In this document: positions 10,040 to 51,722 of the stretch, piece by piece | Layout: each line of letters opens with the position of its first letter | Position numbering within the stretch: the stretch's first letter is position 1 | DNA from: Eledone cirrhosa | Taxonomy: Eukaryota | Assembly (NCBI GenBank): GCA_964016885.1 | Contig: OZ024741.1 | Coordinates: 125,798,001 to 125,862,000 of the forward strand | DNA length: 64,000 nucleotides | Direction of reading: 5' to 3' | Notes under the pieces: generated by a model | Database searches by the model: none | Told to the model about the DNA's origin: nothing | The model's input: the letters and a program-made list of their open reading frames with translations, nothing else | Program-made: the position numbers and the translations under genes

Positions 10040-13000
10040 AACACACAGACAGACATACACAGACACACACAGACATATACAGGCATACACAGACATATAC
10101 AGGCATACACAGACATATACAGGCATACACAGACATATACAGGCATACACAGACACACACAGAGGCATACACAGACATATACAGGCATACACAGACACAC
10201 ACAGAGGCTTACACAGACATATACAGGCATACACAGACACACACAGAGGCATACACAGACATATACAGGCATACACAGACATATACAGAGGCATACACAG
10301 ACATATACAGGCATACACAGACATATACAGGCACACACAGACATATACAGGCATACACAGACATATACAGGCACACACAGACATATACAGACATACACAG
10401 ACATATACAGGCATACACAGACATATACAGAGGCATACACAGACACACACAGGCATACAGAGACATATACAGGCACACACAGACATATACAGGCATACAC
10501 AGACATATACAGGCATAAACAGACATATACAGGCACACACAGACATATACAGGCATACAGAGACATATACAGGCATACACAGACATATACAGGCATACAC
10601 AGACATATACAGGCACACACAGACATATACAGGCATACACAGACATATACAGGAACACACAGACATATACAGGCACATACAGACATATACAGAGGCATAC
10701 AGAGACATATACAGGCATATACAGACATATACAGGCATACACAGACATATACAGGCACACACAGACATATACAGGCACACACAGACATATACAGAGGCAT
10801 ACACAGACATATACAGGCATACACAGACACACAGAGGCATACACGGATATATACAGGCATACACAGACATATACAGGCATACACAGACATATACAGGCAT
10901 ACACAGACACACACAGGCACACACAGACATATACAGAGGCATACACAGACATATACAGGCATACAGAGACATATACAGGCATACACAGACATATACAGGC
11001 ATACACAGACATATACAGGCATACACAGACATATACAGGCATACACAGACATATACAGGCATACATAGGCATATACAGGCATACACAAACACACACAGGC
11101 ACACACAGACATATACAGAGGCATACACAGACACACACAGGCATACACAGACATATACAGGCATACACAGACATATACAGAGGCATACACAGACATATAC
11201 AGGCATACACAGACATATACAGAGGCATACACAGACATATACAGGCATACACAGACATATACAGGCACACACAGACATATACAGGCATACACAGACATAT
11301 ACAGGCACACACAGACATATACAGGCATACACAGACATATACAGGCATACACAGACATATACAGAGGCATACACAGACACACACAGGCATACAGAGACAT
11401 ATACAGGCACACACAGACATATACAGGCATACACAGACATATACAGGCATACACAGACATATACAGGCACACACAGACATATACAGGCATACAGAGACAT
11501 ATACAGGCATACACAGACATATACAGGCATACACAGACATATACAGGCACACACAGACATATACAGGCATACACAGACATATACAGGAACACACAGACAT
11601 ATACAGGCACACACAGACATATACAGAGGCATACAGAGACATATACAGGCATATACAGACATATACAGGCATACACAGACATATACAGGCACACACAGAC
11701 ATATACAGGCACACACAGACATATACAGAGGCATACACAGACATATACAGGCATACACAGACACACACAGGCATACACGGACATATACAGGCATACACAG
11801 ACATATACAGGCATACACAGACATATACAGGCATACACAGACACACACAGGCACACACAAACATATACAGAGGCATACACAGACATATACAGGCATACAG
11901 AGACATATACAGGCATACACAGACATATACAGGCATACACAGACATATACAGGCATACACAGACATATACAGGCATACACAGACATATACAGGCATACAT
12001 AGGCATATACAGGCATACACAGACACACACAGGCACACACAGACATATACAGAGGCATACACAGACACACACAGGCATACACAGACATATACAGGCATAC
12101 ACAGACATATACAGAGGCATACACAGACATATACAGGCATACACAGACATTTACAGGCATACACAGACATATACAGGCATACACAGACATATACAGAGGC
12201 ATACACAGACATATACAGGCATACACAGATATATACAGGCATACACAGACATATACAGGCATACACAGACATATACAGGCATACAGAGACATATACAGGC
12301 ATACACAGACATATACAGGCATACAGAGACATATACAGGCATACAGAGACATATACAGGCATACACAGACATATACAGGTACACACAGACATATACAGGC
12401 ATACACAGACATATACAGGCATACACAGACACACACAGGCATACACAGACATATAGAGGCATACACAGACGCACACACAGGCATACACAGACATATACAG
12501 GCACACACAGACATATACAGGCAAACACTGACATATACAGGCATATACAGACACACACAGGCATACAGAGACATATACAGGCATACACAGACATATACAG
12601 GCATACACAGACATATACAGGCATACACAGACATATACAGGCATACACAGACATATACAGGCATACACAGACACACAGGCACACACATACATATACAGAG
12701 GCATACACAGACATATACAGGCATACACAGACATATACAGGCACACACAGACATATACAGGCATACACAGACATATACAGGCACACACAGACATATACAG
12801 GCATACACAGACATATACAGGCACACACAGACATATACAGGCACACACGGACATATACAGGCATACACAGACATATAGAGGCACACGCAGACATATACAT
12901 GCATACACAGACATATAAAGGCACACACAGACATATACAGGCACACACAGACATATACAGGTATACACAGACATATACAGGCACACACAGACATAGACAG

Positions 13001-16000
13001 AGGCATACAGAGACATATACAGGCATATACAGACAGATACAGGCATACACAGACATATACAGGCACACACAGACATATACAGGCACACACAGACATATAC
13101 AGAGGCATACAGAGACATATACAGGCATATACAGACATATACAGGCATACACAGACATATACAGGCACAGACAGACATATACAGGCACACACAGACATAT
13201 ACAGAGGCATACACAGACATATACAGGTATACACAGACACACACAGGCATACACGGAAATATACAGGCATACACAGACATATACAGGCATACACAGACAT
13301 ATACAGGCATACACAGACACACACAGGCACACACAGACATTTACAGAAGCATACACAGACATATACAGGCATACACAGACATATACAGACATACACAAAC
13401 ATATACAGAGGCATACACAGACATATACAGGCATACACAGACATATACAGGCATACAGAGACATATACAGGCATACACAGACATATACAGGCATACACAG
13501 ACATATACAGGCATACACAGACATATACAGGCATACACAGACATATACAGGCATACACAGACACACACAGGCACACACAGACATATACAGAGGCATAGAC
13601 AGACACACACAGGCATACACAGACATATACAGGCATACACAGACATATACAGAGGCATACACAGACATTTACAGGCATACACAGACATATACAGGCATAC
13701 AGAGACATATACAGGCATACACAGAGATATACAGGCATACAGAGACATATACAGGCATACAGAGACATATACAGGCATACACAGACATATACAAGCATAC
13801 ACAGACATATAGAGGCACACACAGACATATACAGGCACACACAGACATATACAGGCATACACAGACATATACAGGCATACAGAGACATATACAGGCATAC
13901 AGAGACATATACAGGCATACACAGACATATACAAGCATACACAGACATATAGAGGCACACACAGACATATACAGGCACACACAGACATATACAGCCATAC
14001 ACAGACATATACAGGCATACACAGACATATACAGGCATACAGAGACATATACAGACATACACAGACATATACAGGCACACACAGACATATACAGGCATAC
14101 ACAGACACACACAGGCATACACAGACATATACAGGCATACACAGACGCACACACAGGCATACACAGACATATACAGGCACACACAGACATATACAGGCAC
14201 ACACAGACATATACAGGCATATACAGACACACACAGGTATACAGAGACATATACAGGCATACACAGACATATACAGGCATATACAGACACACACAGGCAT
14301 ACACAGACATATACAGGCATACACAGACGCACACACAGGCATACACAGACATATACAGGCACACACAGACATATACAGGCACACACAGACATATACAGGC
14401 ATATACAGACACACACAGGTATACAGAGACATATACAGGCATACACAGACATATACAGGCATACACAGACATATACAGGCACACACAGACATATACAGGC
14501 ATACACAGACATATACAGGCATACAGAGACATATACAGGCATACACAGATATATACAGGCATACACAGACATATACAGGCACACACAGACATATACAGGC
14601 ACACACAGACATATACAGGCAGATGCAGACATATACAGGCATACACAGACATATACAGGCATACACAGACATATACAGGCACACACAGACATATTCTGGC
14701 ATACACAGACATATACAGGCAGATGCAGACATATACAGGCATACACAGACATATACAGGCATACAGAGACATATACAGGCACACACAGACATATACAGGC
14801 ATACACAGACATATACAGGCACACACAGACATATACAGGCACACACAGACATATACAGGCATGCACAGACATATACAGGCATACACAAACATATACAGGC
14901 ATACACAGACATATACAGGCATACACAGACATATACATACATACACAGACATATACAGGCATACACAGACATATACAGGCATACACAGACATATACAGGC
15001 ATACACAGACACACAGGCACACATATACATATACAGAGGCATACACAGACATATACAGGCATACACAGACATATACAGGCACACACAGACATATACAGAC
15101 ATATACAGACATACACAGACATATACAGGCACACAGACATATACAGGCATACACAGACATATACAGGCACACACAGACATATACAGGCACACACAGACAT
15201 ATACAGGCATACACAGACATATACAGGCACACACAGACATATACAGGCACACACAGACATATACAGGCATACACAGACATATACAGGCACACACAGACAT
15301 ATACAGAGGCATACAGAGACATATACAGGCATATACAGACATATACAGGCATACACAGACATATACAGGCACAGACAGACATATACAGGCACACACAGAC
15401 ATATACAGAGGCATACACAGACATATACAGGCATACACAGACACACACAGGCATACACGGAAATATACAGGCATACACAGACATATACAGGCATACACAG
15501 ACATATACAGGCATACACAGACACACACAGGCACACACAGACATATACAGAAGCATACACAGACATATACAGGCATACACAGACATATACAGACATACAC
15601 AGACATATACAGGCACACACAGACATAGATAGGCATACACAGACATATACAGGCACACACAGACATATACAGGCACACACAGACATATACAGGCATACAC
15701 AGACATATAGAGGCACACACAGACATATACAGGCATACACAGACATATACAGGCATACACAGACATATACAGGCACACACAGACATATACAGAGGCATAC
15801 AGAGACATATACAGGCATATACAGACATATACAGGCATACACAGACATATACAGGCACAGACAGACATATACAGGCACACACAGACATATACAGAGGCAT
15901 ACACAGACATATACAGGTATACACAGACACACACAGGCATACACGGAAATATACAGGCATACACAGACATATACAGGCATACACAGACATATACAGGCAT

Positions 16001-19000
16001 ACACAGACACACACAGGCACACACAGACATTTACAGAAGCATACACAGACATATACAGGCATACACAGACATATACAGACATACACAAACATATACAGAG
16101 GCATACACAGACATATACAGGCATACACAGACATATACAGGCATACAGAGACATATACAGGCATACACAGACATATACAGGCATACACAGACATATACAG
16201 GCATACACAGACATATACAGGCATACACAGACATATACAGGCATACACAGACACACACAGGCACACACAGACATATACAGAGGCATAGACAGACACACAC
16301 AGGCATACACAGACATATACAGGCATACACAGACATATACAGAGGCATACACAGACATTTACAGGCATACACAGACATATACAGGCATACAGAGACATAT
16401 ACAGGCATACACAGAGATATACAGGCATACAGAGACATATACAGGCATACAGAGACATATACAGGCATACACAGACATATACAAGCATACACAGACATAT
16501 AGAGGCACACACAGACATATACAGGCACACACAGACATATACAGGCATACACAGACATATACAGGCATACAGAGACATATACAGGCATACAGAGACATAT
16601 ACAGGCATACACAGACATATACAAGCATACACAGACATATAGAGGCACACACAGACATATACAGGCACACACAGACATATACAGCCATACACAGACATAT
16701 ACAGGCATACACAGACATATACAGGCATACAGAGACATATACAGACATACACAGACATATACAGGCACACACAGACATATACAGGCATACACAGACACAC
16801 ACAGGCATACACAGACATATACAGGCATACACAGACGCACACACAGGCATACACAGACATATACAGGCACACACAGACATATACAGGCACACACAGACAT
16901 ATACAGGCATATACAGACACACACAGGTATACAGAGACATATACAGGCATACACAGACATATACAGGCATATACAGACACACACAGGCATACACAGACAT
17001 ATACAGGCATACACAGACGCACACACAGGCATACACAGACATATACAGGCACACACAGACATATACAGGCACACACAGACATATACAGGCATATACAGAC
17101 ACACACAGGTATACAGAGACATATACAGGCATACACAGACATATACAGGCATACACAGACATATACAGGCACACACAGACATATACAGGCATACACAGAC
17201 ATATACAGGCATACAGAGACATATACAGGCATACACAGATATATACAGGCATACACAGACATATACAGGCACACACAGACATATACAGGCACACACAGAC
17301 ATATACAGGCAGATGCAGACATATACAGGCATACACAGACATATACAGGCATACACAGACATATACAGGCACACACAGACATATTCTGGCATACACAGAC
17401 ATATACAGGCAGATGCAGACATATACAGGCATACACAGACATATACAGGCATACAGAGACATATACAGGCACACACAGACATATACAGGCATACACAGAC
17501 ATATACAGGCACACACAGACATATACAGGCACACACAGACATATACAGGCATGCACAGACATATACAGGCATACACAAACATATACAGGCATACACAGAC
17601 ATATACAGGCATACACAGACATATACATACATACACAGACATATACAGGCATACACAGACATATACAGGCATACACAGACATATACAGGCATACACAGAC
17701 ACACAGGCACACATATACATATACAGAGGCATACACAGACATATACAGGCATACACAGACATATACAGGCACACACAGACATATACAGACATATACAGAC
17801 ATACACAGACATATACAGGCACACAGACATATACAGGCATACACAGACATATACAGGCACACACAGACATATACAGGCACACACAGACATATACAGGCAT
17901 ACACAGACATATACAGGCACACACAGACATATACAGGCACACACAGACATATACAGGCATACACAGACATATACAGGCACACACAGACATATACAGAGGC
18001 ATACAGAGACATATACAGGCATATACAGACATATACAGGCATACACAGACATATACAGGCACAGACAGACATATACAGGCACACACAGACATATACAGAG
18101 GCATACACAGACATATACAGGCATACACAGACACACACAGGCATACACGGAAATATACAGGCATACACAGACATATACAGGCATACACAGACATATACAG
18201 GCATACACAGACACACACAGGCACACACAGACATATACAGAAGCATACACAGACATATACAGGCATACACAGACATATACAGACATACACAGACATATAC
18301 AGGCACACACAGACATAGATAGGCATACACAGACATATACAGGCACACACAGACATATACAGGCACACACAGACATATACAGGCATACACAGACATATAG
18401 AGGCACACACAGACATATACAGGCATACACAGACATATACAGGCATACACAGACATATACAGGCACACACAGACATATACAGAGGCATACAGAGACATAT
18501 ACAGGCATATACAGACATATACAGGCATACACAGACATATACAGGCACACACAGACATATACAGGCATACACAGACATATACAGAGGCATACACAGACAT
18601 ATACAGGCCTACACAGACACACACAGGCATACACGGAAATATACAGGAATACACAGACATATACAGGCATACACAGACATATACAGGCATACACAGACAT
18701 ATACAGGCATACACAGACATATACAGAGGCATACACAGACATATACAGGCATACACAGACATATACAGGCATACACAGACATATACAGGCATACACAGAC
18801 ACATACAAGCACACACAGACATATACAGGCATACACAGACATATACAGGCATACACAGACGCACACACAGGCATACACAGACATATACAGGCACACACAG
18901 ACATATACAGGCACACACAGACATATACAGGCATACACACACATATACAGGCATACAGAGACATATACAGGCATACACAGACATATACAGGCATACACAG

Positions 19001-22000
19001 ACATATACAGGCACACACAGACATATACAGGCATACACAGACATATACAGGCATACACAGACATATACAGGCATACACAGACATATACAGGCATACACAG
19101 ACATATACAGGCACATGCAGACATATACAGGCATACACAGACATATACAGGCATACAGAGACATATACAGGCACACACAGAGATATACAGGCACACACAG
19201 ACATATACTGGCATACACAGACATATACATGCACACACAGATATATACAGGCATACAGAGACATATACAGGCACACACAGACATATACAGGCATACACAG
19301 ACACACACAGGCATACACAGACATATACAGGTATACACAGACATATACAGGCATGCACAGACATATACAGGCATACACAAACATATACAGGCATACACAG
19401 ACATATACAGGCATACACAGACATATACATACATACACAGACATATACAGGCATACACAGACATATACAGGCATACACAGACATATACAGGCATACACAG
19501 ACACACAGGCACACACATACATATACAGAGGCATACACAGACATATACAGGCATACACAGACATATACAGGCACACACAGACATATACAGACATACACAG
19601 ACATATACAGGCACACAGACATATACAGGCATACACAGACATATACAGGCACACACAGACATATACAGGCACACACAGACATATACAGGCATACACAGAC
19701 ATATACAGGCACACACAGACATATACAGGCACGCACAGACATATACAGGCATACACAGACATATACAGGCACACACAGACATATACAGAGGCATACAGAG
19801 ACATATACAGGCATATACAGACATATACAGGCATACACAGACATATACAGGCACAGACAGACATATACAGGCACACACAGACATATACAGAGGCATACAC
19901 AGACATATACAGGCATACACAGACACACACAGGCATACACGGAAATATACAGGCATACACAGACATATACAGGCATACACAGACATATACAGGCATACAC
20001 AGACACACACAGGCACACACAGACATATACAGAAGCATACACAGACATATACAGGCATGCACAGACATATACAGACATACACAGACATATACAGGCATAC
20101 ACAGACATATACAGGCACACACAGACATATACAGGCACACACAGACATATACAGGCATACACAGACATATACAGGCACACACAGACATATACAGAGGCAT
20201 ACAGAGACATATACAGGCATATACAGACATATACAGACATATACAGGCATACACAGACATATACAGGCACACACAGACATATACAGGCACACACAGACAT
20301 ATACAGAAGCATACACAGACATATACAGGCCTACACAGACACACACAGGCATACACGGAAATATACAGGCATACACAGACATATACAGGCATACACAGAC
20401 ATATACAGGCATACACAGACATATACAGGCATACACAGACATATACAGAGGCATACACAGACATATACAGGCATACACAGACATATACAGAGGCATACAC
20501 AGACACACACAGGCATACACAGACATATACAGGCATACACAGACATATACAGAGGCATACACAGACATATACAGGCATACACAGACATATACAGGCATAC
20601 AGAGACATATACAGGCATACACAGACATATACAGGCATACACAGACATATACAGGCATACACAGACATATACAGGCATACACAGACACATACAAGCACAC
20701 ACAGACATATACAGGCATACACAGACATATACAGGCATACACAGACGCACACACAGGCATACACAGACATATACAGGCACACACAGACATATACAGGCAC
20801 ACACAGACATATACAGGCATACACAGACATATACAGGCATACAGAGACATATACAGGCATACACAGACATATACAGGCATACACAGACATATACAGGCAC
20901 ACACAAACATATACAGGCATACACAGATATATACAGGCATACACAGACATATACAGGCATACACAGACATATACAGGCATACACAGACATATACAGGCAC
21001 ATGCAGACATATACAGGCATACACAGACATATACAGGCATACAGAGACATATACAGGCACACACAGAGATATACAGGCACACACAGACATATACTGGCAT
21101 ACACAGACATATACATGCACACACAGATATATACAGGCATACAGAGACATATACAGGCACACACAGACATATACATACATACACAGACATATACAGGCAT
21201 ACACAGACATATACAGGCATACACAGACATATACAGGCATACACAGACACACAGGCACACACATACATATACAGAGGCATACACAGACATATACAGGCAT
21301 ACACAGACATATACAGGCACACACAGACATATACAGACATACACAGACATATACAGGCACACAGACATATACAGGCATACACAGACATATACAGGCACAC
21401 ACAGACATATACAGGCACACACAGACATATACAGGCATACACAGACATATACAGGCACACACAGACATATACAGGCACACACAGACATATACAGGCATAC
21501 ACAGACATATACAGGCACACACAGACATATACAGAGGCATACAGAGACATATACAGGCATATACAGACATATACAGGCATACACAGACATATACAGGCAC
21601 AGACAGACATATACAGGCACACACAGACATATACAGAGGCATACACAGACATATACAGGTATACACAGACACACACAGGCATACACGGAAATATACAGGC
21701 ATACACAGACATATACAGGCATACACAGACATATACAGGCATACACAGACACACACAGGCACACACAGACATTTACAGAAGCATACACAGACATATACAG
21801 GCATACACAGACATATACAGACATACACAAACATATACAGAGGCATACACAGACATATACAGGCATACACAGACATATACAGGCATACAGAGACATATAC
21901 AGGCATACACAGACATATACAGGCATACACAGACATATACAGGCATACACAGACATATACAGGCATACACAGACATATACAGGCATACACAGACACACAC

Positions 22001-24630
22001 AGGCACACACAGACATATACAGAGGCATAGACAGACACACACAGGCATACACAGACATATACAGGCATACACAGACATATACAGAGGCATACACAGACAT
22101 TTACAGGCATACACAGACATATACAGGCATACAGAGACATATACAGGCATACACAGAGATATACAGGCATACAGAGACATATACAGGCATACACAGAGAT
22201 ATACAGGCATACAGAGACATATACAGGCATACAGAGACATATACAGGCATACACAGACATATACAAGCATACACAGACATATAGAGGCACACACAGACAT
22301 ATACAGGCACACACAGACATATACAGGCATACACAGACATATACAGGCATACAGAGACATATACAGGCATACAGAGACATATACAGGCATACACAGACAT
22401 ATACAAGCATACACAGACATATAGAGGCACACACAGACATATACAGGCACACACAGACATATACAGCCATACACAGACATATACAGGCATACACAGACAT
22501 ATACAGGCATACAGAGACATATACAGACATACACAGACATATACAGGCACACACAGACATATACAGGCATACACAGACACACACAGGCATACACAGACAT
22601 ATACAGGCATACACAGACGCACACACAGGCATACACAGACATATACAGGCACACACAGACATATACAGGCACACACAGACATATACAGGCATATACAGAC
22701 ACACACAGGTATACAGAGACATATACAGGCATACACAGACATATACAGGCATATACAGACACACACAGGCATACACAGACATATACAGGCATACACAGAC
22801 GCACACACAGGCATACACAGACATATACAGGCACACACAGACATATACAGGCACACACAGACATATACAGGCATATACAGACACACACAGGTATACAGAG
22901 ACATATACAGGCATACACAGACATATACAGGCATACACAGACATATACAGGCACACACAGACATATACAGGCATACACAGACATATACAGGCATACAGAG
23001 ACATATACAGGCATACACAGATATATACAGGCATACACAGACATATACAGGCACACACAGACATATACAGGCACACACAGACATATACAGGCAGATGCAG
23101 ACATATACAGGCATACACAGACATATACAGGCATACACAGACATATACAGGCACACACAGACATATTCTGGCATACACAGACATATACAGGCAGATGCAG
23201 ACATATACAGGCATACACAGACATATACAGGCATACAGAGACATATACAGGCACACACAGGCATATACAGGCATACACAGACATATACAGGCATACACAG
23301 ACATATACAGGCATACACAGACATATACAGGCATACACAGACGCACACACAGGCATACACAGACATATACAGGCACACACAGACATATACAGGCATATAC
23401 AGACACACACAGGTATACAGAGACATATACAGGCATACACAGACATATACAGGCATATACAGACACACACAGGCATACACAGACATATACAGGCATACAC
23501 AGACGCACACACAGGCATACACAGACATATACAGGCACACACAGACATATACAGGCACACACAGACATATACAGGCATATACAGACACACACAGGTATAC
23601 AGAGACATATACAGGCATACACAGACATATACAGGCATACACAGACATATACATGCACACACAGACATATACAGGCATACACAGACATATACAGGCATAC
23701 AGAGACATATACAGGCATACACAGATAAATACAGGCATACAGAGACATATACAGGCACACACAGACATATACAGGCATACACAGACATATACAGGCAGAT
23801 GCAGACATATACAGGCATACACAGACATATACAGGCATACACAGACATATACAGGCACACACAGACATATTCAGGCATACACAGACATATACAGGCAGAT
23901 GCAGACATATACAGGCATACACAGACATATACAGGCATACAGAGACATATACAGGCACACACAGACATATACAGGCATACACAGACATATACAGGCACAC
24001 ACAGACATATACAGGCACACACAGACATATACAGGCATACAGAGACATATACAGGCACACACAGACTTATACAGGCATACACAGACACACACAGGCATAC
24101 GCAGACATATACAGGCATACACAGACATATACAGGCATGCACAGACATATACAGGCATACACAGACATATACAGGCATACACAGACATATACAGGCATAC
24201 ACAGACATATACAGGCATACACAGACATATACAGGCACACACAGGCATATACAGGCATACACAGACATATACAGGCATACACAGACATATACAGGCATAC
24301 ACAGACATATACAGGCATACACAGACGCACACACAGGCATACACAGACATATACAGGCACACACAGACATATACAGGCACACACAGACATATACAGAGGC
24401 ATACACAGACATATACAGGCATACACAGACATATACAGGCACACACAGGCATATACAGGCATACACAGACATATACAGGCATACACAGACATATACAGGC
24501 ATACACAGACATATACAAGCATACACAGACGCACACACAGGCCTACACAGACATATACAGGCACACACAGACATATACAGGCATACACAGACATATACAG
24601 GCACACACAGACATATACAGACATACACAT
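10040..24630. repeat. 20-bp minisatellite (ACAGACATATACAGGCATAC)n with kilobase higher-order repeats
   Basis: Unit is a dimer of 10-mers; rare variants recur at a fixed 2690-bp spacing (14623/17313, 13341/16031, 13669/16359). Confidence 0.98.
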
Positions 24631-24708
24631 ACATACATCTATACATAAACATACACACTGAGACACACAGACATTCACATACATACTAAGACACACACAA
24701 AAGCACAG

Positions 24709-29293: not shown

Positions 29294-29306
29294 TCAATAT
29301 AGAAAT

Positions 29307-29355
29307 GCTTCTACAGGACTAGAACCGTTTCATCCGGGAGAAATCATCAGGAAGC
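29307..29355 (-). ncRNA. Type I hammerhead ribozyme in a fold-back pLTR remnant
   Basis: GCUUC-CUGAUGA-uuucucccggau-GAAA-CGGuucuaguCCUG-UA-GAAGC; lies in a hairpin at 29293-29403 between (TA)n tracts. Confidence 0.75.
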
Positions 29356-29497
29356 CCTGATAAAACAGTTCTAGTCCTGTAGAAGCCATTTCTATATTAA
29401 ATATTTATACTCTGCTATGTATTGAGTACTTTACTTACTGTAGTTACCCTCGATTGAACCCGGGATTAACTTATTTATATATATATACAGTATATCA

Positions 29498-29581
<84 letters not shown>

Positions 29582-30283
29582 CGAATAAGGAAAAGCGAAG
29601 TAGTTTCAGATGTTCAAGTCCTTTAATAATAATGCTGTGATATATATTTCAGTGACGACACTGGCCACACTGTTCTGTGTGCGAGTGTCGTGTCATCATC
29701 AGACAGCTTGTTACATAATAAGGTTATGTTTCCGAGGCAATCCAAATTGGATCGACAAGGGAACGGATGAATTGCGTGTTCTTGGGTTTTTCATCCGCTC
29801 CCTTGTGAGTACCAATTCACCCCCACCGGCCTGCGCAAGCGCATGTTTGAAGGAAGTTGACCATTCTCCACCGCAGACTTCAACGAAATTTGCTTAGTCA
29901 GTTCACCCTGTCAGCCAAAACAGTGGCCCACCAATGCCTGTACCATATTTTACTGCTACCCATCACGGCTGTGGCAGTCAGCCGAGAGCCAGAGGGGATG
30001 GGAGAGTGTTAGTTTTTACAGTGTTAGTTTTTCCCTTGTCGAACCAATTTGGATTGCCTCGGAAACATAACCTTATTATGTAACAAGCTGTCTAATGATG
30101 ACACGACACTCGCACACAGAACAGTGTGGCCAGTGTCGTCACTTAAATATATATCACAGCATTATTATTAAAGGACTTGAACATTTGAAACTACTTCGTT
30201 TTTCCTTATTCGATATTTACTCCGTCACTCCTATGTGGAAAAAGTAGGTTGAGTGGTTGAATTGAATTGCATCAATGTTTACC

Positions 30284-30290: not shown

Positions 30291-30312
<22 letters not shown>

Positions 30313-30317
<5 letters not shown>

Positions 30318-31289
30318 AATAATGGAGCTGAGGCGCTGCAAATGGGTTACATATGAAAAAGTTTGTCCTCATCAGTGGCCATCCAACCGTCGTAGGCATT
30401 TCGTCGCATTAAAGGCCATATACCTCAGGTTGGTGCGAGCAACGGCTAAAAAAAAGTCGTTGGGACACGTTAATAAAGGGGACGCTAGGGTAAACAAACA
30501 AAATGGTTTAAGCAGCAGAAAGAGAGGAAGAAGGAAACAAGTCCCAGATTTCTATGAATATAAATTCGGTGGAATCGTGAACGAGAGAATAAAGACCATC
30601 AAACCTGGTTGAAATGTGAGCAAGGAAGGAATTTCGCACAGGTCTAACGGGAGGAAGAAGGGGTCTGGTCTGCGAATTCGGTAAACATAAGTTCTGTGAA
30701 GTCGCAGACGAGAGAGAGAGAAAAAAAAATTCATACCGGCTTGGCGAAGAGCCCGCGAGAAGAGGATTGTGGACAGGTCAAACGGGAAGAAAGGGGAGGA
30801 GGAGAGGTAGTGACAGAAAGTGAGTGAGTGAAAGGTGAGGAAGAGGCTAACAGAGAGAGAGAGAGAGACTGCTAGAAAGGGTAAAGACACAAAGAACGAA
30901 ACAGACTGGTGGCAGCGGAGGAAAAAATATATGTGTAAATATGATAATAATGGAGCTGCGGCGCTGCAAATGGGTTACATATGAAAAAGTTTGTCCTCAT
31001 CAGTGGCCTTCCAACCGTCGTAGGCATTTCGTCGCATTAAAGGCCATATACCTCAGGTTGGTGCGAGCAACGGCTAAAAAAAGTCGTTGGGACACGTAAA
31101 TAAGGGGGACGCTAGGGTAAACAAACAAATCTGTTGCTTAAAGCATTTTGTTTGTTTACCCTAGCGTCCCCCTTATTTACGTGTCCCAACGACTTTTTTT
31201 AGCCGTTGCTCGCACCAACCTGAGGTATATGGCCTTTAATGCGACGAAATGCCTACGACGGTTGGAAGGCCACTGATGAGGACAAACTT

Positions 31290-31297
<8 letters not shown>
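30313..31297. mobile_element. Direct-direct-inverted ~190-bp repeat cassette (pLTR-like) in (TA)n
   Basis: Copies at 30313-30512 and 30941-31130 (direct) and 31138-31297 (inverted). Confidence 0.7.
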
Positions 31298-31366
<69 letters not shown>

Positions 31367-31458
31367 TATATATATATACATATATACATATATGAAGTAC
31401 GCCCTTATATATTTATGTATATATATACATATATATATATATATACATATATATATGC

Positions 31459-31511
<53 letters not shown>

Positions 31512-31516
<5 letters not shown>

Positions 31517-34500
31517 AATAACTCCCTCTGGTTGAGTAATCTTTGAAGTGTGGTGGCTGCTGGAAAGCTGCCATTACTCATACTTCTCGCCTCCTTCACC
31601 ACCTCTTCTGCGGCTTCGATATAAATACCCCCTCCGCCTCTGTGGTATTTTCTTCGGGGTTATAAGAGGCTTAGCTCTGTTTCTCGACCGTTATATCGCG
31701 TGACTATCTCCCCCTCCGCCTTTTGGGATTCTTTCTCACGTCGTGTAGACGCGTTCTTGAGACTAGTAAAATGAGGTATCCTCTTGATAAGTCGGCAGAC
31801 CTCGCAGGGACTCTATATCTTTATGATGTATTGTTTTTGTTTATGCCACGAAACTACGTAGTCGAGGAATCTAGGAGCAGTTTAGGTATGATACATTTTA
31901 TTACTAATTATATCTAAATGTTTCTTCTCTCTTCATAATGTATTTTTAACTCTGATACTGGTTCAGTCTGGTTCAACCGGATTGGTCTGTCCCGGTCATT
32001 CATTGAGCAACATCGGTGAGGTTGGCACCCTTAACTCACGGTTGGGTGTGGATGCATTCATGTATATGTGTGTGTCCGCATGTATCTGTGTGTTTCTAAA
32101 TATATTGTTAATAACTCCCTCTGGTTGAGTAATCTTTGAAGTGTGGTGGCTGCTGGAAAGCTGCCATTACTCATACTTCTCGCCTCCTTCACCACCTCTT
32201 CTGCGGCTTCGATATAAATACCCCCTCCGCCTCTGTGGTATTTTCTTCGGGGTTATAAGAGGCTTAGCTCTGTTTCTCGACCGTTATATCGCGTGACTAT
32301 CTCCCCCTCCGCCTTTTGGGATTCTTTCTCACGTCGTGTAGACGCGTTCTTGAGACTAGTAAAATGAGGTATCCTCTTGATAAGTCGGCAGACCTCGCAG
32401 GGACTCTATATCTTTATGATGTATTGTTTTTGTTTATGCCACGAAACTACGTAGTCGAGGAATCTAGGAGCAGTTTAGGTATGATACATTTTATTACTAA
32501 TTATATCTAAATGTTTCTTCTCTCTTCATAATGTATTTTTAACTCTGATACTGGTTCAGTCTGGTTCAACCGGATTGGTCTGTCCCGGTCATTCATTGAG
32601 CAACATCGGTGAGGTTGGCACCCTTAACTCACGGTTGGGTGTGGATGCATTCATGTATATGTGTGTGTCCGCATGTATCTGTGTGTTTCTAAATATATTG
32701 TTAATAACTCCCTCTGGTTGAGTAATCTTTGAAGTGTGGTGGCTGCTGGAAAGCTGCCATTACTCATACTTCTCGCCTCCTTCACCACCTCTTCTGCGGC
32801 TTCGATATAAATACACTCTCCGCCTCTGTGGTATTTTCTTCGGGGTTATAAGAGGCTTAGCTCTGTTTCTCGACCGTTATATCGCGTGTCTATCTCCCCC
32901 TCCGCCTTTTGGGATTCTTTCTCACGTCGTGTAGACGCGTTCTTGAGACTAGTAAAATGAGGTATCCTCTTGATAAGTCGGCAGACCTCGCAGGGACTCT
33001 ATATCTTTATGATGTATTGTTTTTGTTTATGCCACGAAACTACGTAGTCGAGGAATCTAGGAGCAGTTTAGGTATGATACATTTTATTACTAATTATATC
33101 TAAATGTTTCTTCTCTCTTCATAATGTATTTTTAACTCTGATACTGGTTCAGTCTGGTTCAACCGGATTGGTCTGTCCCGGTCATTCATTGAGCAACATC
33201 GGTGAGGTTGGCACCCTTAACTCACGGTTGGGTGTGGATGCATTCATGTATATGTGTGTGTCCGCATGTATCTGTGTGTTTCTAAATATATTGTTAATAA
33301 CTCCCTCTGGTTGAGTAATCTTTGAAGTGTAGTGGCTGCTGGAAAGCTGCCATTACTCATACTTCTCGCCTCCTTCACCACCTCTTCTGCGGCTTCGATA
33401 TAAATACCCTCTCCGCCTCTGTGGTATTTTCTTCGGGGTTATAAGAGGCTTAGCTCTGTTTCTCGACCGTTATATCGCGTGTCTATCTCCCCCTCCGCCT
33501 TTTGGGATTCTTTCTCACGTCGTGTAGACGCGTTCTTGAGACTAGTAAAATGAGGTATCCTCTTGATAAGTCGGCAGACCTCGCAGGGACTCTATATCTT
33601 TATGATGTATTGTTTTTGTTTATGCCACGAAACTACGTAGTCGAGGAATCTAGGAGCAGTTTAGGTATGATACATTTTATTACTAATTATATCTAAATGT
33701 TTCTTCTCTCTTCATAATGTATTTTTAACTCTGATACTGGTTCAGTCTGGTTCAACCGGATTGGTCTGTCCCGGTCATTCATTGAGCAACATCGGTGAGG
33801 TTGGCACCCTTAACTCACGGTTGGGTGTGGATGCATTCATGTATATGTGTGTGTCCGCATGTATCTGTGTGTTTCTAAATATATTGTTAATAACTCCCTC
33901 TGGTTGAGTAATCTTTGAAGTGTAGTGGCTGCTGGAAAGCTGCCATTACTCATACTTCTCGCCTCCTTCACCACCTCTTCTGCGGCTTCGATATAAATAC
34001 CCTCTCCGCCTCTGTGGTATTTTCTTCGGGGTTATAAGAGGCTTAGCTCTGTTTCTCGACCGTTATATCGCGTGTCTATCTCCCCCTCCGCCTTTTGGGA
34101 TTCTTTCTCACGTCGTGTAGACGCGTTCTTGAGACTAGTAAAATGAGGTATCCTCTTGATAAGTCGGCAGACCTCGCAGGGACTCTATATCTTTATGATG
34201 TATTGTTTTTGTTTATGCCACGAAACTACGTAGTCGAGGAATCTAGGAGCAGTTTAGGTATGATACATTTTATTACTAATTATATCTAAATGTTTCTTCT
34301 CTCTTCATAATGTATTTTTAACTCTGATACTGGTTCAGTCTGGTTCAACCGGATTGGTCTGTCCCGGTCATTCATTGAGCAACATCGGTGAGGTTGGCAC
34401 CCTTAACTCACGGTTGGGTGTGGATGCATTCATGTATATGTGTGTGTCCGCATGTATCTGTGTGTTTCTAAATATATTGTTAATAACTCCCTCTGGTTGA

Positions 34501-35070
34501 GTAATCTTTGAAGTGTAGTGGCTGCTGGAAAGCTGCCATTACTCATACTTCTCGCCTCCTTCACCACCTCTTCTGCGGCTTCGATATAAATACCCTCTCC
34601 GCCTCTGTGGTATTTTCTTCGGGGTTATAAGAGGCTTAGCTCTGTTTCTCGACCGTTATATCGCGTGTCTATCTCCCCCTCCGCCTTTTGGGATTCTTTC
34701 TCACGTCGTGTAGACGCGTTCTTGAGACTAGTAAAATGAGGTATCCTCTTGATAAGTCGGCAGACCTCGCAGGGACTCTATATCTTTATGATGTATTGTT
34801 TTTGTTTATGCCACGAAACTACGTAGTCGAGGAATCTAGGAGCAGTTTAGGTATGATACATTTTATTACTAATTATATCTAAATGTTTCTTCTCTCTTCA
34901 TAATGTATTTTTAACTCTGATACTGTTTCAGTCTGGTTCAACCGGATTGGTCTGTCCCGGTCATTCATTGAGTAATATCGGTGAGGTTGGCACCCTTAAC
35001 TCACGGTTGGGTGTGGATGCATTCATGTATATGTGTGTGTCCGCATGTATCTGTGTGTTTCTAAATATAT
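31512..35070 (+). repeat. 6 x 593-bp tandem array with one hammerhead per unit (retrozyme-like)
   Basis: Unit marker at 31514, 32107, 32700, 33293, 33886, 34479; units differ by only a few SNPs; flanked by (TA)n. Confidence 0.95.
31779..31868 (+). ncRNA. Type I hammerhead, U3-A8 variant (repeats every 593 bp through 34744-34833)
   Basis: UCCUC-UUGAUAA-GU(c)GGCA..loop..UGCCAC-GAAA-CUACGUAG-UC-GAGGA; predicted cut after C31863. Confidence 0.75.
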
Positions 35071-35105
<35 letters not shown>

Positions 35106-35215
35106 ATATATATGTATATATATCAATGATATTAATAAATGGAAACTATATTTATAAAACTATATTTATTTTATTATATATATTTCAATGGCACCATAAT
35201 CGTCTCTTTCTACCT

Positions 35216-36314: not shown

Positions 36315-36958
36315 CGAAGGAAGTGTAGTAAGGAACCAGAGTCCAGAGTACTCAATACTTAGGGTAGTAGAGTGGGTAATAGGAAAAGGTATAACCCCGA
36401 CGGCAGAGCTCAAGCTGTTTCGACGGGTGGTTTTCTGCTAGCATGTGTAGTGTGTATATTGATATTATACGCAAGTATATATACATGTAGATATGATACA
36501 TCAAATAAAATCGTAATCAGTAACGTAATCCATGATACATTTTAAAAAGACGATATTATATATAAACTGCATTAGTAGAAAATTAGTGACAAAAAATTAG
36601 TATGTTTATTTAAGTGATCGCCACCGGAAGTGTTGACATCACACACTCTCTCTCATTCTATATATATGGTAGTTGAAATGGTGGTGGCAACGATATACCG
36701 GAAGTGCAACTTTGAAAAGAAGTCAATTTTAAATTATTTATTTTTACGAAATTATTTTTGTTTACGAAATTTAGTAGCGATAAAATAAAGTACCAGTAAT
36801 ACACTGCTAAATTGCTGGCCTTGTGCCAAAAGTAGAAACAATTATTTATTCAAAGTAATCCAACTTATTTTACTAACGGGATAAAAAAAAATAAACCGTG
36901 CGCAGTCCCGCAGACCTTCCTTTATTATAGTATATATGTATATATATATATTATAGTA

Positions 36959-37060
<102 letters not shown>

Positions 37061-37070
37061 AACCAGTAAG

Positions 37071-37164
37071 ACCCCGACGGCTGAGCTCAAGCCGTTTCGA
37101 CGGCTAATTCTGGACTAAATGAAAATTTATCCTGGTATTTAAATAGCCGAGCTTCTCAAAGGGT
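37071..37164 (-). ncRNA. Type I hammerhead, U3-A8 variant
   Basis: ACCCU-UUGAGAA-gcuCGGCUA..loop..UAGCCGuc-GAAA-CGGCU-ugagcuc-AGCCG-UC-GGGGU; half-copies at 36394-36427 (-) and ~49552-49568 (+). Confidence 0.8.
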
Positions 37165-37494
37165 AATTCCATATATGGTCAAAGTGATTGTCACAAGGAT
37201 TGGTCACAAGTTAGTAGTAATTCTGTGATGGCAAATTAATGGGGGAAGGGGTAGCTAAACCTGCCAGTAGGAGAAAAGGAGGAGGGGTGGAGTAGACCCA
37301 TTCATGCGTTGGTGGTGCCGGCTACAGCTGGGCGTGAGGTCAAAGAAGATACTAGGGAGGGGGAGGGGGAGGGGGAGGAAGTCGAAACGGTAAGTAGAAC
37401 AATGAAGGGTAAAAATATACTGAGAGTGAAGCGAATAAATGTAAAGAAAAAAAAAAGCAATTTCTACGACCTAAGTCTCTCGCTATTGCTAGGC

Positions 37495-37537
<43 letters not shown>

Positions 37538-38265
37538 ATGAATAAATAGATAAAGAAATAAAAAAATAATAAATAAATAAACTAGGTGGGACGGAATAGG
37601 AAAGGACCCTCTTAAGAGGTATAAGTACGTATATCATACAGTGACGGGTCAACAAAGGGGGGCCAAAATACTAAAGAAACTACCACGAAATAATTAATAA
37701 AGGTTTCTATCCCGGGCACAAGGCCAGCAACCACCCAGTGCAGAAAAGTAAACTAGTACGAAATAATAATTCAGAGTCCCGAAAAAAATATACTAATGCT
37801 AACTCTAAGGGTACCGCCACGCTACAAAAGTTCTTATACAAGCTACATGAAAGTTCATACGAAGTAAAAGTGGAATACGGAAAATTAATTCAGAATCCAC
37901 CCCGCCCAAATATATATATATATATATATAAATTAATAAAAATAATGAATAAAAACAAAGAAACAGTTCCTTATATTAAAAAATTCATCATTTTACGATC
38001 GTTTCTAGGATATATATGTGTGTGTTGTATGTATATCATATAGATCTATGTAAAAGTTTTACAAACTATCAGAGGGAATATACATACCTACACATATATA
38101 TGCTGTTTTTATTCATTATTTTTATTAATTTATCTTGACTCTGTTTTCCTGTGTTTTTCATCGAAAAGATTTTGAATACATCTTCTCTTTTCCTGATATT
38201 TGGATTACATTGAGTTCTTCATACGGATTGGACACTACCGTATATTTTGGTAGATTTATCTACGT

Positions 38266-38346
<81 letters not shown>

Positions 38347-38380
38347 AAAGAATAGAGGTGTAACACACAAGTTATTATAT

Positions 38381-39113
38381 ATTGGTAAACGGAATAGAAA
38401 ATGCTGACAAATTGTTCACAGTTGAAAAATGGTTTAATTAGGAATAAAAGAGTATTAGTGATTGTATGGGTTAGTATTCAGTTGTGGTTTTAAGTTTTTA
38501 AGTTTTTACCGGTTGCGCATTTTTAAATGCTTTTCAAAAATAATTTTGAGATAGAGTGTCCGTGTTGTTTGCTCTGATCTGATTAGTTTTGGGAATTCTA
38601 CCTGTTTTTATGTTAAAAAAGTGGCTCCAGCGTTACTTTGGTGTTGCAAAAATTCTTGTGGTCAAAACAATTTTGATTGGTCGGTAGAGGTCATGTGAAT
38701 GTAAAAAATTGATTTTGCGCCAAGACTGTTTTTATGTTAAAAAAGTGGCTCCAGCGCTAGCCACTTTTTAAACATAAAAACAGTCTTGGCGCAACATCAA
38801 TTTTTTACATTCACATGACCTCTACCGACCAATCAAAATTGTTTTGACCACAAGAATTTTTGCAAATTGGAGCCACTTTTTTAACATAAAAACAGGTAGA
38901 ATTCCAAAAACTAATCAGATCAGAGCAAACAACACGGACACTCTATCTCAAAATTATTTTTGAAAAGCATTTAGAAATGCGCAACCGGTAAAAACTTCAA
39001 AACTTAAAACCACAACTGAATAACCCATACAATCACTAATACTCTTTTATTCCTAATTAAACCATTTTTCAACTGTGAACAATTTGTCAGCATTTTCTAT
39101 TCCGTTTACCAAT
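38381..39113. repeat. ~730-bp near-perfect palindrome of pLTR-like family P-A
   Basis: 38381-38756 mirrors 38759-39113 with almost no spacer. Confidence 0.92.
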
Positions 39114-39446
39114 ATATATATATATATATATATCATAAAACATGTCTATAGAATCACAAGATAAAATATATACTATTTCCTCTCCCAATTAGCATAATTA
39201 ACTAAATAAAAAATCGAATAGACCAGACTATACGAATGAGGCTTCTATGAAGGAATCTCCGACAAATAACCGAAACTAGCGCTTCACGTCGGCCGTAGCG
39301 GAATATTTATCGAATATTTCGACAGCGTAATCGCCTAGATATAGTCAACTAAACAGAATTAGGTTTAAAATAAACTAGGAGAAAATAGAATACATTTAAA
39401 TACCTCTACCATGGTTTCGTCCGTGTTTTGAGTTTTCCAATAATTA

Positions 39447-44618
<5,172 letters not shown>

Positions 44619-44691
44619 AACTTATTTAAAAATTGTATCCCAGTCGTCGGTATTTTTCAACGCATTGTTGATATATACCGTATATATATTG

Positions 44692-49549: not shown

Positions 49550-49884
49550 CGTGAGCTCAGCCATCGGGCACTACCTTTTAATTATACATACATTCTACTT
49601 TCCCAAGTATCTAGTACTTAGCTGAATATAGTTTTAGTAGTCTAACCGGTAACTCCTAATCTATCTATCTATCTATCTATCTTGATAGAGTAAGACACGC
49701 TTCGCATCGGCTCCGCTATTCCATCGGGATTTACCCTTACTATTGTAAGTACCGGATAAATTGTTTAGTGCAACACATTTGGAACACTAACCCCTGTTAT
49801 TTAGGGAAACATTTTTGCATTTACCCCCTTTTTAGGGGGTAAAATAAATATCTATTTTTGCCGAAAAATTTCTTTCTTGGCAGC

Positions 49885-51717
49885 ATGGCGGAAAAGATGG
49901 CAGACATGTCTGCCATTAGTTCTGCCACATCCCCCAAGTCTGAAGAACAAAAAATAATTACACCAAAATTAGACATTGAAACAAACAAACAAAATGAAAA
50001 AACAAATGTTAAGGAAAATGAGCAAACAGAAAACAAACAAACAGAAAATAATACAAATAACGACAGGGCAACTTTCGCCCAGAAAACAAAACAATCCATT
50101 ACATACACACCAATTGACCTAACTGCCGCCAGAGAAAAACTGGCAGAAGCAAAGAAACACATTGTTTTGGGGGAGAACGGAATGTTTTCCATTAACTCCC
50201 CCCCAGAATTCAAGAAAGCCAGAGCAGAAAACACAGTTCTCTACAGAACTATACTGAACCAGACAAGAAAGCCAGCACAGCCCAGCCAAATGGAAATAGA
50301 GTTAGTCCTAAAAGACTATATGAAGAATATTCTCTTCATACGAAAGGACCGACTCTATGGCAGCATTTCGGTCCTAACAAGAGACAAAGAAACGGCGGAG
50401 AAGCTTTCCCTAAGCCCACTCTCGTCGACAACATATAGCTTCTATCCCTCCTACATGGGTAGAAGAACACAGAGAGTAAAAGTAAAAACAATGCTGCCCA
50501 CAATGGACTTCTGGTGGGCTATTGCTGGCTTCATTGATATGGGCGAAGACACAATGCTGTCAATGGGGAAGGCAACTGGAGATGCGTTCCTGGGAATGGG
50601 CCTCGACATACTAGTCCAAATGAGGCCCGAAAGAATAGCACAAATCCCGGATCGCATCTGGCTGGATGACCTTACCCCAATAGACATAATTGTAGAGGGG
50701 AGAAGACCAGCATGCTATTTATGCATGGAAAGGGGACACGTTAAGGCTAACTGCCCGAAACGTATCCCCCAAAAAGGACTATTGCCCACACCCACCACAA
50801 ACAGTACACCAAAACCACCCACCTCCAAAAATACACTAATACCACACACAGCAAACAAAATACAGACACCACCAACCACAAACACAACACAAACATCACC
50901 ACCACCAGCACCAAACACAAGCACGACACAAAAATCACCACCACCAACCACAACACAAACATCACCACCACCATCACCAACCACAAGCACGACACAAACA
51001 TTACCACCACCACCACAAAACCCATTCCAAACAAATAATAAAAAAAACAGTAACAAATCTACCCCTCCCGCAAAAAAAAAACAACCACACAACACGTCCC
51101 TCCCACCTAGCGCTGAAGAGTTTCCCCCAACTTCTGAAGAAGAAGGAGGAGAAGCCTTCAGACAAGTTAAAAGAAAAAAAAGAAAACACACACCCAGCAC
51201 ACCACAAATAACCCACACACAAACACCAACTCCAATCAAAAACACCCCACCCTCAACAAACAAAAATAAATCTGCGCCTCCCCTCTCCGAAACATTGACA
51301 GCATCACAAAAAAAGACGTTGCAATACACATATATAAATAAAGAAAACAAAAAACTGGTTAAATTAATAAACAATAACCCTATGGTGCAGACCGAAGGGC
51401 CAAACTTTATCTCAACAGAGAACTTCACCCATTTAAAAATGATAAAGGTCCCTCTGGACCTTTATCGTTCCTTAAAAGAACAATTTAGACGGGACGTGAG
51501 CCCCCCCTGTTTAAAACCGTTGAATCGCGTCCTCTTGAAAGATTTCCCCATAACCGCCCCTCTCCCTGACACAACTCCAAATACCCCAACCCCACCACAC
51601 ACGTGTACCCCCACACCACCACAAAACATCCCTCCACCCAACACACCTGATGCCATGGAAATTACGCAACCCGGAGAGGTAAGTGCTTTTCTTTCTTCAC
51701 TTTCAACACCAAAATAG
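49885..51717 (+). CDS. LINE ORF1 protein with a CCHC zinc knuckle and P/T-rich tail
   Basis: Open from ATG 49885; CYLCMERGHVKANC. Confidence 0.88.
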   Translation: MAEKMADMSAISSATSPKSEEQKIITPKLDIETNKQNEKTNVKENEQTENKQTENNTNNDRATFAQKTKQSITYTPIDLTAAREKLAEAKKHIVLGENGMFSINSPPEFKKARAENTVLYRTILNQTRKPAQPSQMEIELVLKDYMKNILFIRKDRLYGSISVLTRDKETAEKLSLSPLSSTTYSFYPSYMGRRTQRVKVKTMLPTMDFWWAIAGFIDMGEDTMLSMGKATGDAFLGMGLDILVQMRPERIAQIPDRIWLDDLTPIDIIVEGRRPACYLCMERGHVKANCPKRIPQKGLLPTPTTNSTPKPPTSKNTLIPHTANKIQTPPTTNTTQTSPPPAPNTSTTQKSPPPTTTQTSPPPSPTTSTTQTLPPPPQNPFQTNNKKNSNKSTPPAKKKQPHNTSLPPSAEEFPPTSEEEGGEAFRQVKRKKRKHTPSTPQITHTQTPTPIKNTPPSTNKNKSAPPLSETLTASQKKTLQYTYINKENKKLVKLINNNPMVQTEGPNFISTENFTHLKMIKVPLDLYRSLKEQFRRDVSPPCLKPLNRVLLKDFPITAPLPDTTPNTPTPPHTCTPTPPQNIPPPNTPDAMEITQPGEVSAFLSSLSTPK

Positions 51718-51722
51718 ATCAA

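What the first reader, a model, noticed from the sequence alone, without database searches (positions are those of the whole stretch)
31512..35070. Retrozyme-like 6 x 593-bp tandem array, each unit carrying a variant-core hammerhead ribozyme
Seen: six nearly identical non-coding 593-bp units between (TA)n tracts. Each unit has UCCUC/GAGGA stem I, a UUGAUAA core, stem II GU(c)GGCA/UGCCAC closing a long loop, GAAA, palindromic stem III ACUACGUAGU and a GUC site. A TATAAATA box lies ~160 bp upstream of the motif. Known: metazoan non-LTR retrozymes are tandem repeats with one type I hammerhead per unit; multimeric transcripts self-cleave to monomers that can circularise. Palindromic stem III motifs of Penelope elements are thought to cleave as dimers. 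Inference: a large-unit retrozyme or rolling-copied pLTR, possibly mobilised by a Penelope RT such as the one ~5.6 kb away. A search for canonical CUGANGA would miss it.
Basis: partly seen in the sequence, partly recalled or inferred. Interest (0 to 1): 0.88.

Follow-up and report, generated by a model that had tools for sequence, protein, structure and literature searches.

The report
Penelope-mobilised hammerhead retrozyme, two start sites
This array is one insertion of a non-coding 593-base repeat that carries a predicted self-cutting RNA motif and occurs thousands of times in this animal genome; the ends of its copies suggest that a borrowed Penelope-type jumping-gene enzyme copies it from two fixed start points, likely around a small RNA circle, a step proposed but not shown in the papers read.

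Summary
Confirmed: six 593-bp units (0-6 differences), each with a type I hammerhead with U3-A8 core; predicted cut after 31863+593n. The 'long loop' is a second hairpin extending helix II. A 24-nt ribozyme piece occurs 7,444 times in the genome. A sister family 78% identical elsewhere keeps 43 of 44 ribozyme positions, but there is no two-sided covariation. In 49 insertions taken in genome order, 71 of 73 arms end at unit position 432 or 593-596 against TA repeats; 22 of 24 two-armed insertions use one site each, none the same site twice. An autonomous Hydra-clade Penelope family with a similar U3-A8 hammerhead leaves this footprint (4 of 4). Both arms share private variants, enriched for sense-strand A>G; copying passes through the cut site. 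Best reading: a non-autonomous Penelope-mobilised retrozyme, likely copied from one circular RNA. Against: this array shows nested DNA-type changes, so it was probably partly expanded as DNA; cleavage and circles are untested; the partner element was not found, and the RT 5.6 kb away shares no sequence with the unit. Class, unit size and U3-A8 core are in print. The scan has noted 591/595-bp arrays of this description and similar families elsewhere in this genome.

The parts
31512..35071 (+). Single-armed insertion: six head-to-tail 593-bp non-coding units (43% GC)
31294..31512 (.). (TA)n target tract, 5' side; the 5' junction uses the unit's own ATATAT as microhomology
35065..35123 (.). (TA)n target tract, 3' side
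31620..31627 (+). TATAAATA (repeated every 593 nt); promoter role uncertain, polymorphic in the family
31779..31868 (+). Type I hammerhead, unit 1: stem I 31779-31783/31864-31868; U3-A8 core 31784-31790; helix II 31791-31797/31844-31849 with bulged C; extension hairpin 31804-31840; GAA 31850-31852; palindromic helix III 31853-31862; C17 31863
32372..32461 (+). Hammerhead, unit 2 (cut predicted after 32456)
32965..33054 (+). Hammerhead, unit 3 (cut predicted after 33049)
33558..33647 (+). Hammerhead, unit 4 (cut predicted after 33642)
34151..34240 (+). Hammerhead, unit 5 (cut predicted after 34235)
34744..34833 (+). Hammerhead, unit 6 (cut predicted after 34828)
31935..31943 (+). End site E1 (unit position 432, 80 nt after the cut): fixed 3' end of about half of the family's arms; passed through in this insertion
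35062..35071 (+). End site E2 (unit position 593-596, 161-164 nt after E1): the 3' end of this insertion
37056..37910 (-). Neighbour, not part of the array: 3' end of an autonomous Hydra-clade Penelope family with a U3-A8 hammerhead (37071-37164) of the same design
40687..44078 (-).

Best explanation
The array is one insertion of an abundant non-coding repeat family with one hammerhead motif per unit, whose copies end at two fixed sites against TA repeats, and it was likely written into DNA by the reverse transcriptase-endonuclease of a Penelope-like element, probably from a circular RNA made by predicted self-cleavage. Steps: (1) shown: family size, conservation of the ribozyme, sense-strand-only RNA structure, two fixed ends used one per arm, arms alike, copying passes through the cut site; (2) inferred: multi-unit transcript, cleavage by paired hammerheads, ligation to a 593-nt circle (as shown for coral, mussel and axolotl retrozymes); (3) inferred: an enzyme dimer nicks both strands of a TA tract and starts one cDNA at E1 and the other at E2 on the same template, giving tail-out two-armed insertions, or one arm when only one cDNA is kept, as here; (4) inferred for this locus: later unequal exchange at DNA level raised the unit number to six. 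The mobiliser is most likely a Hydra-clade element; the family was not identified.
For: 7,444 exact matches, control 0; 127 matches, most at 95-100%, from 40 of 2,483 candidates scored. 71 of 73 arms in 49 insertions end at E1 (35) or E2 (36); 22 of 24 two-armed insertions are E1/E2, none E1/E1 or E2/E2 (0.5^22 = 2e-7); sister family 10 of 10 detected opposite-end pairs; the same two loose ends appear in public DNA contigs. Autonomous Hydra-clade family with 784-aa ORF: two ends at +17/+97 after its cut, one per arm in 4 of 4 two-armed loci seen, helix II with the same bulged-C GGC/GCC design. Two internal RT starts, both-strand nicking of AT-rich DNA and a predicted dimer are reported for an anole Penelope enzyme (PMC11167929). 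Ribozyme stems and core 43 of 44 identical between sister families against 429 of 549 elsewhere (p=7e-4; 19 of 19 in the 5' half, p=0.02). Circle folds at z=-4.6 on the sense strand, z=+0.7 antisense. Arms of one insertion differ at 43 of 7,091 sites, against medians of 1.1-5.1% to other arms (11.5% for one old copy); adjacent units 104 of 25,557. Private variants shared by all copies of an insertion, in both arms for L037, L038, L040, L109, L120, are A>G in 12 of 44 (10 of 22 without old copy L092) against 4 of 90 single-copy variants (p=3e-4). 100 passages through the cut site, 0 of 69 arms begin there. 5' junctions with AT-rich flanks fall on the cut site 13 times against 5 and 4 at two control positions (p about 0.01), a weak sign of cleavage in vivo.
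Against: No cleavage, transcript or circle was tested. In this array variants are nested (units 3-6 share two private changes, units 4-6 a third; none is A>G), which fits DNA duplication and not one pass around a circle; L103, L127 and L128 also show partly shared variants. No two-sided covariation in the ribozyme: helices I-III are nearly invariant, the extension changes on one side only and does not beat the shuffles. Stem I and helix III are not favoured in folds of the whole unit (probability 0.00-0.02). The A>G sites lack the ADAR neighbour bias, so editing as their cause is not shown. A uniform source array read as an uncut linear multimer would also give alike arms. In L053 the two arms differ as much as unrelated arms (8 of 403). 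8 of 9 predicted Xenopus retrozyme dimers did not cleave in vitro, and the anole hammerhead needed protein and was dispensable for insertion. No partner element with shared sequence was found.
Confidence: 0.72

Rival explanations
1. Same element and enzyme, but the template is an uncut linear multi-unit transcript; arrays are rebuilt by unequal crossing-over in DNA, and the hammerhead has a minor or late role.
For: Nested private variants in this array and in L103, L127, L128; copying passes through the cut site; uncut RNA is the main substrate of the anole enzyme; Li et al. favour local tandem amplification.
Against: Sense-strand A>G variants shared by every unit of an insertion, in L120 across 7 copies in two arms with otherwise only single-copy changes; 31 of 69 arms exceed one unit although linear read-out can only shorten arrays; ribozyme conserved across 22% divergence.
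Confidence: 0.2
2. The unit is the terminal repeat (pLTR) of an autonomous Penelope element that was not sampled; the arrays are its truncated tandem copies.
For: Identical insertion footprint and ribozyme design in an autonomous Hydra-clade family; only 40 of 2,483 candidates could be scored.
Against: In 49 insertions taken in genome order and 30 sister-family loci no arm runs into a coding region; units follow units. Penelope protein matches in these loci lie beyond a TA tract or on the other strand where I read them (L025, L122); one sister-family end abuts an RT fragment directly (L149), tail-first, which reads as an insertion into it.
Confidence: 0.06
3. A plain satellite or a locally mis-assembled repeat with a chance hammerhead-like motif.
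For: Contigs cannot confirm six units at this place; units 1=2 and 4=5 are identical.
Against: Thousands of dispersed copies with fixed ends, selective conservation, other arrays of 4-5 units.
Confidence: 0.02

Closest known systems
Metazoan non-LTR retrozymes (Cervera and de la Pena 2020, PMC7229834: abstract, passages, sections 13 and 17 read; Li, Clavereau and Pollet 2026, 10.64898/2026.07.22.740005: parts 1-3 of 5 read, supplements not seen)
   Same: Non-coding tandem units, one type I hammerhead each, GC under 50%, no LTR organisation, stable sense-strand fold, size within the 51-972 bp range, co-occurrence with Penelope elements.
   Different: U3-A8 core and long extended helix II instead of the canonical motif; the parts read propose Penelope mobilisation and circle copying but do not describe fixed RT start sites, two-armed insertions or TA targeting for retrozymes; expression and cleavage not tested here.
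Penelope minimal hammerheads, U3-A8 variant of Schistosoma mansoni Cercyon (Cervera and de la Pena 2014, PMC4209133: parts 1-2 of 4 read)
   Same: U3-A8 core (about 1,300 hits there), 5-bp helix I, long helix II, bulge in helix II, palindromic helix III, motifs on opposite strands 100-700 bp apart, dimer model.
   Different: There mostly single, heterogeneous motifs; here a homogeneous young tandem family with a 10-nt palindrome and a 14-pair extension.
Anolis Poseidon element PAc (Frangieh et al. 2024, PMC11167929: parts 1-2 of 4 read)
   Same: Two internal RT start sites downstream of the hammerhead that define an optional tail; AT-rich targets; both strands extended.
   Different: PAc is autonomous, tail 30-40 bp, and no strand difference in start site was seen in vitro; here the tail is 161-164 nt and the two sites are always used one per arm.
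Hydra-clade Penelope-like elements (Craig et al. 2021, PMC8557442: passages, section 11 and one supplementary file searched)
   Same: (TA)n targeting, inverted 5'-truncated copies, tail at one end only, hammerheads; a member in this genome has the same ribozyme design and footprint.
   Different: The unit has no ORF and no sequence match to the two Hydra families examined; its motifs were not found in the one supplementary file held.

Membership tests
Metazoan non-LTR retrozyme | [quoted passage not shown] | tested here: met
   6 of 6 units; criterion
Metazoan non-LTR retrozyme | Non-coding, GC under 50% | tested here: met
   longest ORF 48 aa, GC 43%
Metazoan non-LTR retrozyme | Dispersed multi-copy family without LTR organisation | tested here: met
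   PBS/PPT not searched separately
Metazoan non-LTR retrozyme | Canonical C3-G8 core | tested here: not met
   U3-A8 in all units and in 36 of 38 sister-family rows at position 3; a described variant
Metazoan non-LTR retrozyme | Self-cleavage of the transcript | not testable with these tools
   indirect only: conservation, 13 against 5 and 4 junctions at the cut site
Metazoan non-LTR retrozyme | Linear and circular monomer RNA in cells | not testable with these tools
   needs RNA data or a blot; see Tried and rejected
Metazoan non-LTR retrozyme | Target-site duplication | tested here: inconclusive
   both flanks are TA repeats
Penelope-like element insertion | 5' truncation, partial tandems, inverted 5'-truncated copy | tested here: met
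   24 of 49 insertions two-armed; 5' ends spread over the unit
Penelope-like element insertion | Optional tail at one end only (two RT starts) | tested here: met
   22 of 24; length 161-164 nt rather than 30-40
Autonomous Penelope-like element | RT + GIY-YIG ORF between pLTRs | tested here: not met
   none joined to the unit in 49 + 30 loci
Non-autonomous partner of a named Penelope family | Shared terminal sequence with an autonomous family | tested here: inconclusive
   no match to the three autonomous families examined; others in this genome not examined
Hydra clade (neighbour at 37056-37910) | C-terminal GIY-YIG with CxCX5C linker, CxxC and CxH motifs, hammerhead, (TA)n target | tested here: met
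   motifs read in translations of related loci against the description; no tree built, RWK and DKT motifs not checked

The most novel reading that the evidence does not exclude
Each insertion of this family is the fossil of one Penelope enzyme dimer copying one edited 593-nt RNA circle from two fixed, obligately paired start sites into both strands of a TA repeat: genomic proof of rolling-circle retrotransposition, and a ready non-coding cargo RNA for programmable tandem insertion.
Probability: 0.45. Interest if true: 0.72.

Novelty: new variant of a known kind. Interest (0 to 1): 0.5.

Why it matters
How animal retrozymes move is proposed (Penelope enzyme, circular template) but not shown in the papers read, and why Penelope insertions carry a tail at one end only is unexplained there. 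This family gives exact, testable coordinates: cut site, two start sites 161-164 nt apart, a strict one-per-strand rule and a candidate enzyme clade with intact ORFs in the same genome. It also shows that hammerhead searches fixed on CUGANGA miss families with thousands of copies. The class itself, the unit size and the core variant are known, which caps the surprise.

Tried and rejected
Rfam scan: no hit. RNA evidence: no RNA holder listed; contigs of 4 and 3 runs were laid and cannot show expression, ends or array length; run X1 may be the source sample and is not independent. The RT at 40687-44078 as partner: no similarity to unit positions 1-540 in the rest of the window or 30 loci of its family. 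Hydra families as direct parent: no match in 6 + 30 + 13 loci; an 83% 29-nt hit lies beyond a TA tract in another element. Covariation in the stems: not found; the whole-unit alignment of 10 monomers has only 7 of 176 pairs with a two-sided change. Simple L1-type twin priming: fits some loci (L011) but most arm pairs overlap by hundreds of bases. Cleaved linear monomer as main template: rejected; a stricter junction pattern gave 1 match and was superseded. ADAR context test: negative. TATA box as fixed promoter: doubtful. A possible short ORF or intron starting in helix II: nothing convincing. Look-up of earlier notes by sequence and near this place: nothing. Paper searches for a published genomic demonstration of two-armed or edited retrozyme insertions (listings and abstract starts only, apart from the five papers named) found none; the library lacks most subscription journals, and the preprint's supplements and Craig's File S2 of hammerheads were not seen.

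Full report
Observation. The array is as described: six 593-bp units from 31512, 0-6 differences per pair, between TA tracts. Each unit holds a type I hammerhead on the + strand with C17 at 31863+593n. The core reads UUGAUAA, that is U3-A8 in place of C3-G8. Rfam does not detect it. The 46 nt between the helix II strands are not a loop: they fold into a 14-pair, G-U-rich extension. The unit is non-coding and 43% GC.

Family. The window lies in a 3.0-Gb animal genome. The 24-nt 3' half of the ribozyme matches 7,444 times exactly, the reversed control never; this count includes some sister-family copies. The first 100 matches fall in 50 loci, which extrapolates to roughly 3,700 insertions (my estimate). 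Subfamilies of about 588-595 bp exist. A sister family (40 of 1,662 candidates scored) is also tandem and non-coding in the loci read.

Is the ribozyme real? Between the two families 43 of 44 stem and core positions agree against 429 of 549 elsewhere (p=7e-4); the 5' half, which was not in my pattern search, agrees at 19 of 19 (p=0.02). The sister loci were found by DNA similarity over a stretch that includes the ribozyme, which may favour conserved copies. There is no two-sided covariation: in 20 chosen rows of 81 distinct ones, helices I-III barely vary, and 9 of 14 extension pairs change on one side only, no better than shuffles. The monomer folds strongly as RNA on the sense strand (z=-5.05 linear; -4.6 circular) but not on the antisense strand (+0.7). 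Helix III is unstable as a hairpin (+1.5 kcal/mol) and stable as a self-duplex (-12.9), which fits the dimer model; in whole-unit folds stem I is not formed. Cleavage is untested. A weak genomic sign: 13 junctions with AT-rich flanks begin exactly at the cut site, against 5 and 4 at two control positions (p about 0.01).

Insertion anatomy. I analysed all 50 loci behind the first 100 matches on one contig; one is the sister family and one insertion is present twice by a local duplication and counted once, leaving 49. Four long arrays picked were kept out of these counts. Of 73 arms, 35 end at unit position 432 (E1) and 36 at 593-596 (E2), running into TA repeats, some degenerate; 5' ends are scattered. 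25 insertions have one arm (12 E1, 13 E2). 24 have two arms pointing outward: 22 pair E1 with E2, 2 have one odd end, none uses the same site twice (chance 2e-7). The best-scoring loci show the same, as do the 10 opposite-end pairs detected among 30 sister-family loci. Public DNA contigs show loose TA ends at 31943 and 32105. The window's array is a one-armed E2 insertion.

This is the Penelope footprint: truncation, partial tandems, an inverted copy and a tail at one end only (PMC8557442). For an anole element the tail marks two internal RT start sites, the enzyme nicks and extends both strands of AT-rich DNA and is modelled as a dimer (PMC11167929). In this genome an autonomous family with a 784-aa ORF and Hydra-clade endonuclease motifs has a U3-A8 hammerhead with the same bulged-C helix II and a palindromic helix III, ends at +17 or +97 after its cut, and uses one end per arm in 4 of 4 two-armed loci seen. 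A 3' fragment of it lies at window 37056-37910. It shares no further DNA similarity with the unit, nor does a second Hydra family or the RT element at 40687-44078. The partner is therefore unidentified; the Hydra clade is the best guess.

Template. The two arms of an insertion differ at 43 of 7,091 sites in 20 insertions with enough overlap (3 had too little), against medians of 1.1-5.1% to other arms (11.5% for one old copy); L053 is an exception. Adjacent units differ at 104 of 25,557 sites. Variants private to an insertion and carried by all its copies are A>G on the sense strand in 12 of 44 cases (10 of 22 without old copy L092), against 4 of 90 single-copy variants; L120 carries three such variants in all 7-8 copies over both arms. 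'Private' is relative to 53 insertions only. Sense-strand A>G is what A-to-I editing would leave (own knowledge), but the neighbour bias was not found. Copying crosses the cut site 100 times and no arm of 69 starts there; 31 of 69 arms exceed one unit. These loci were selected for an intact cut site, which biases against arms that stop there. A single template that is either circular or an uncut uniform multimer explains all this; the circle is favoured because it regenerates multimers and spreads one RNA-level change to every unit.

This locus. Here the evidence goes against a pure rolling copy: units 1-2 carry the family alleles, units 3-6 share two private changes, units 4-6 a third, unit 6 three more, none A>G. 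Such nesting fits DNA-level duplication after insertion, also seen in L103, L127 and L128. A shorter insertion later expanded to six units is the most likely history.

Known and new. Tandem hammerhead repeats expressed as circles are known and Penelope mobilisation is proposed (PMC7229834; preprint 10.64898/2026.07.22.740005, units of 51-972 bp). U3-A8 is described for Schistosoma Penelope hammerheads (PMC4209133). Not found in the parts read or in my searches: a tandem retrozyme with this core, a 161-164-nt tail, the strict one-site-per-arm rule, or shared strand-biased variants. Earlier notes of this scan describe 591/595-bp U3-A8 arrays and 310-, 422- and 467-bp families in this genome with the same reading; they are not independent support, and one calls the host a cephalopod, which I did not test. 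My end analysis preceded those look-ups; the A>G test was prompted by one of them.

Verdict: a real, young, abundant non-autonomous Penelope-type retrozyme; new variant of a known kind; its value lies in making the proposed circle-copying step directly testable.

Noticed in passing
window 37056-37910 (-) and 36320-36430 (-): 3' ends of an autonomous Hydra-clade Penelope family (or a close relative, for the shorter piece) with a U3-A8 hammerhead; full copies elsewhere have a 784-aa ORF between two hammerhead repeats and an 80-nt optional tail.
   Followed up: yes
window 40687-44078 (-), repeats 38376-39871 and 44092-44631: Broken copy (frameshift and stop) of a very young RT + GIY-YIG family (35,509 candidates); the sequence around the ORF start recurs inverted after the 3' UTR, also in L079; no hammerhead found by my scans.
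   Followed up: partly
window 29295-29470: Short inverted piece resembling the hammerhead region of a second Hydra-clade family (758-aa ORF, C3-G8 core, simple-repeat 3' region over 1.5 kb); judged by eye.
   Followed up: partly
window 30299-31300: 154-bp near-perfect inverted repeat (30976-31300) and a direct copy at 30299-30454, with CUGAUGA at 31273; probably a fold-back fragment of another small Penelope-type element in the same TA tract.
   Followed up: no
window 29575-30219: 189-bp inverted repeat beginning at a TA tract; the related locus L204 shows a C3-G8 hammerhead in this sequence.
   Followed up: no
window 10049-24635: 14.6-kb array of a 20-bp unit, about 724 copies.
   Followed up: no
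window 49843-55155 (+) and 55781-58907 (+): LINE with open ORF1 (624 aa) and ORF2 (1,101 aa; APE, RT, zf-RVT), followed by a broken relative.
   Followed up: no
G000, e.g. L131-L160: Sister retrozyme family, about 78% identical, same ribozyme and same two end sites.
   Followed up: yes
flanks of L006, L016, L028, L035, L045, L211, L215, L218, L221: At least eight further hammerhead sequence types beside TA tracts, several with long helix II and palindromic helix III, one more with a U3-A8 core.
   Followed up: no
unit positions 427-431 with 344-348 (window 31938-31942 with the helix III palindrome): In folds of the monomer the E1 site pairs with the helix III palindrome, invariant in 10 of 10 aligned monomers; a 5-pair helix that might link ribozyme blocking and RT start, or be chance.
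   Followed up: no
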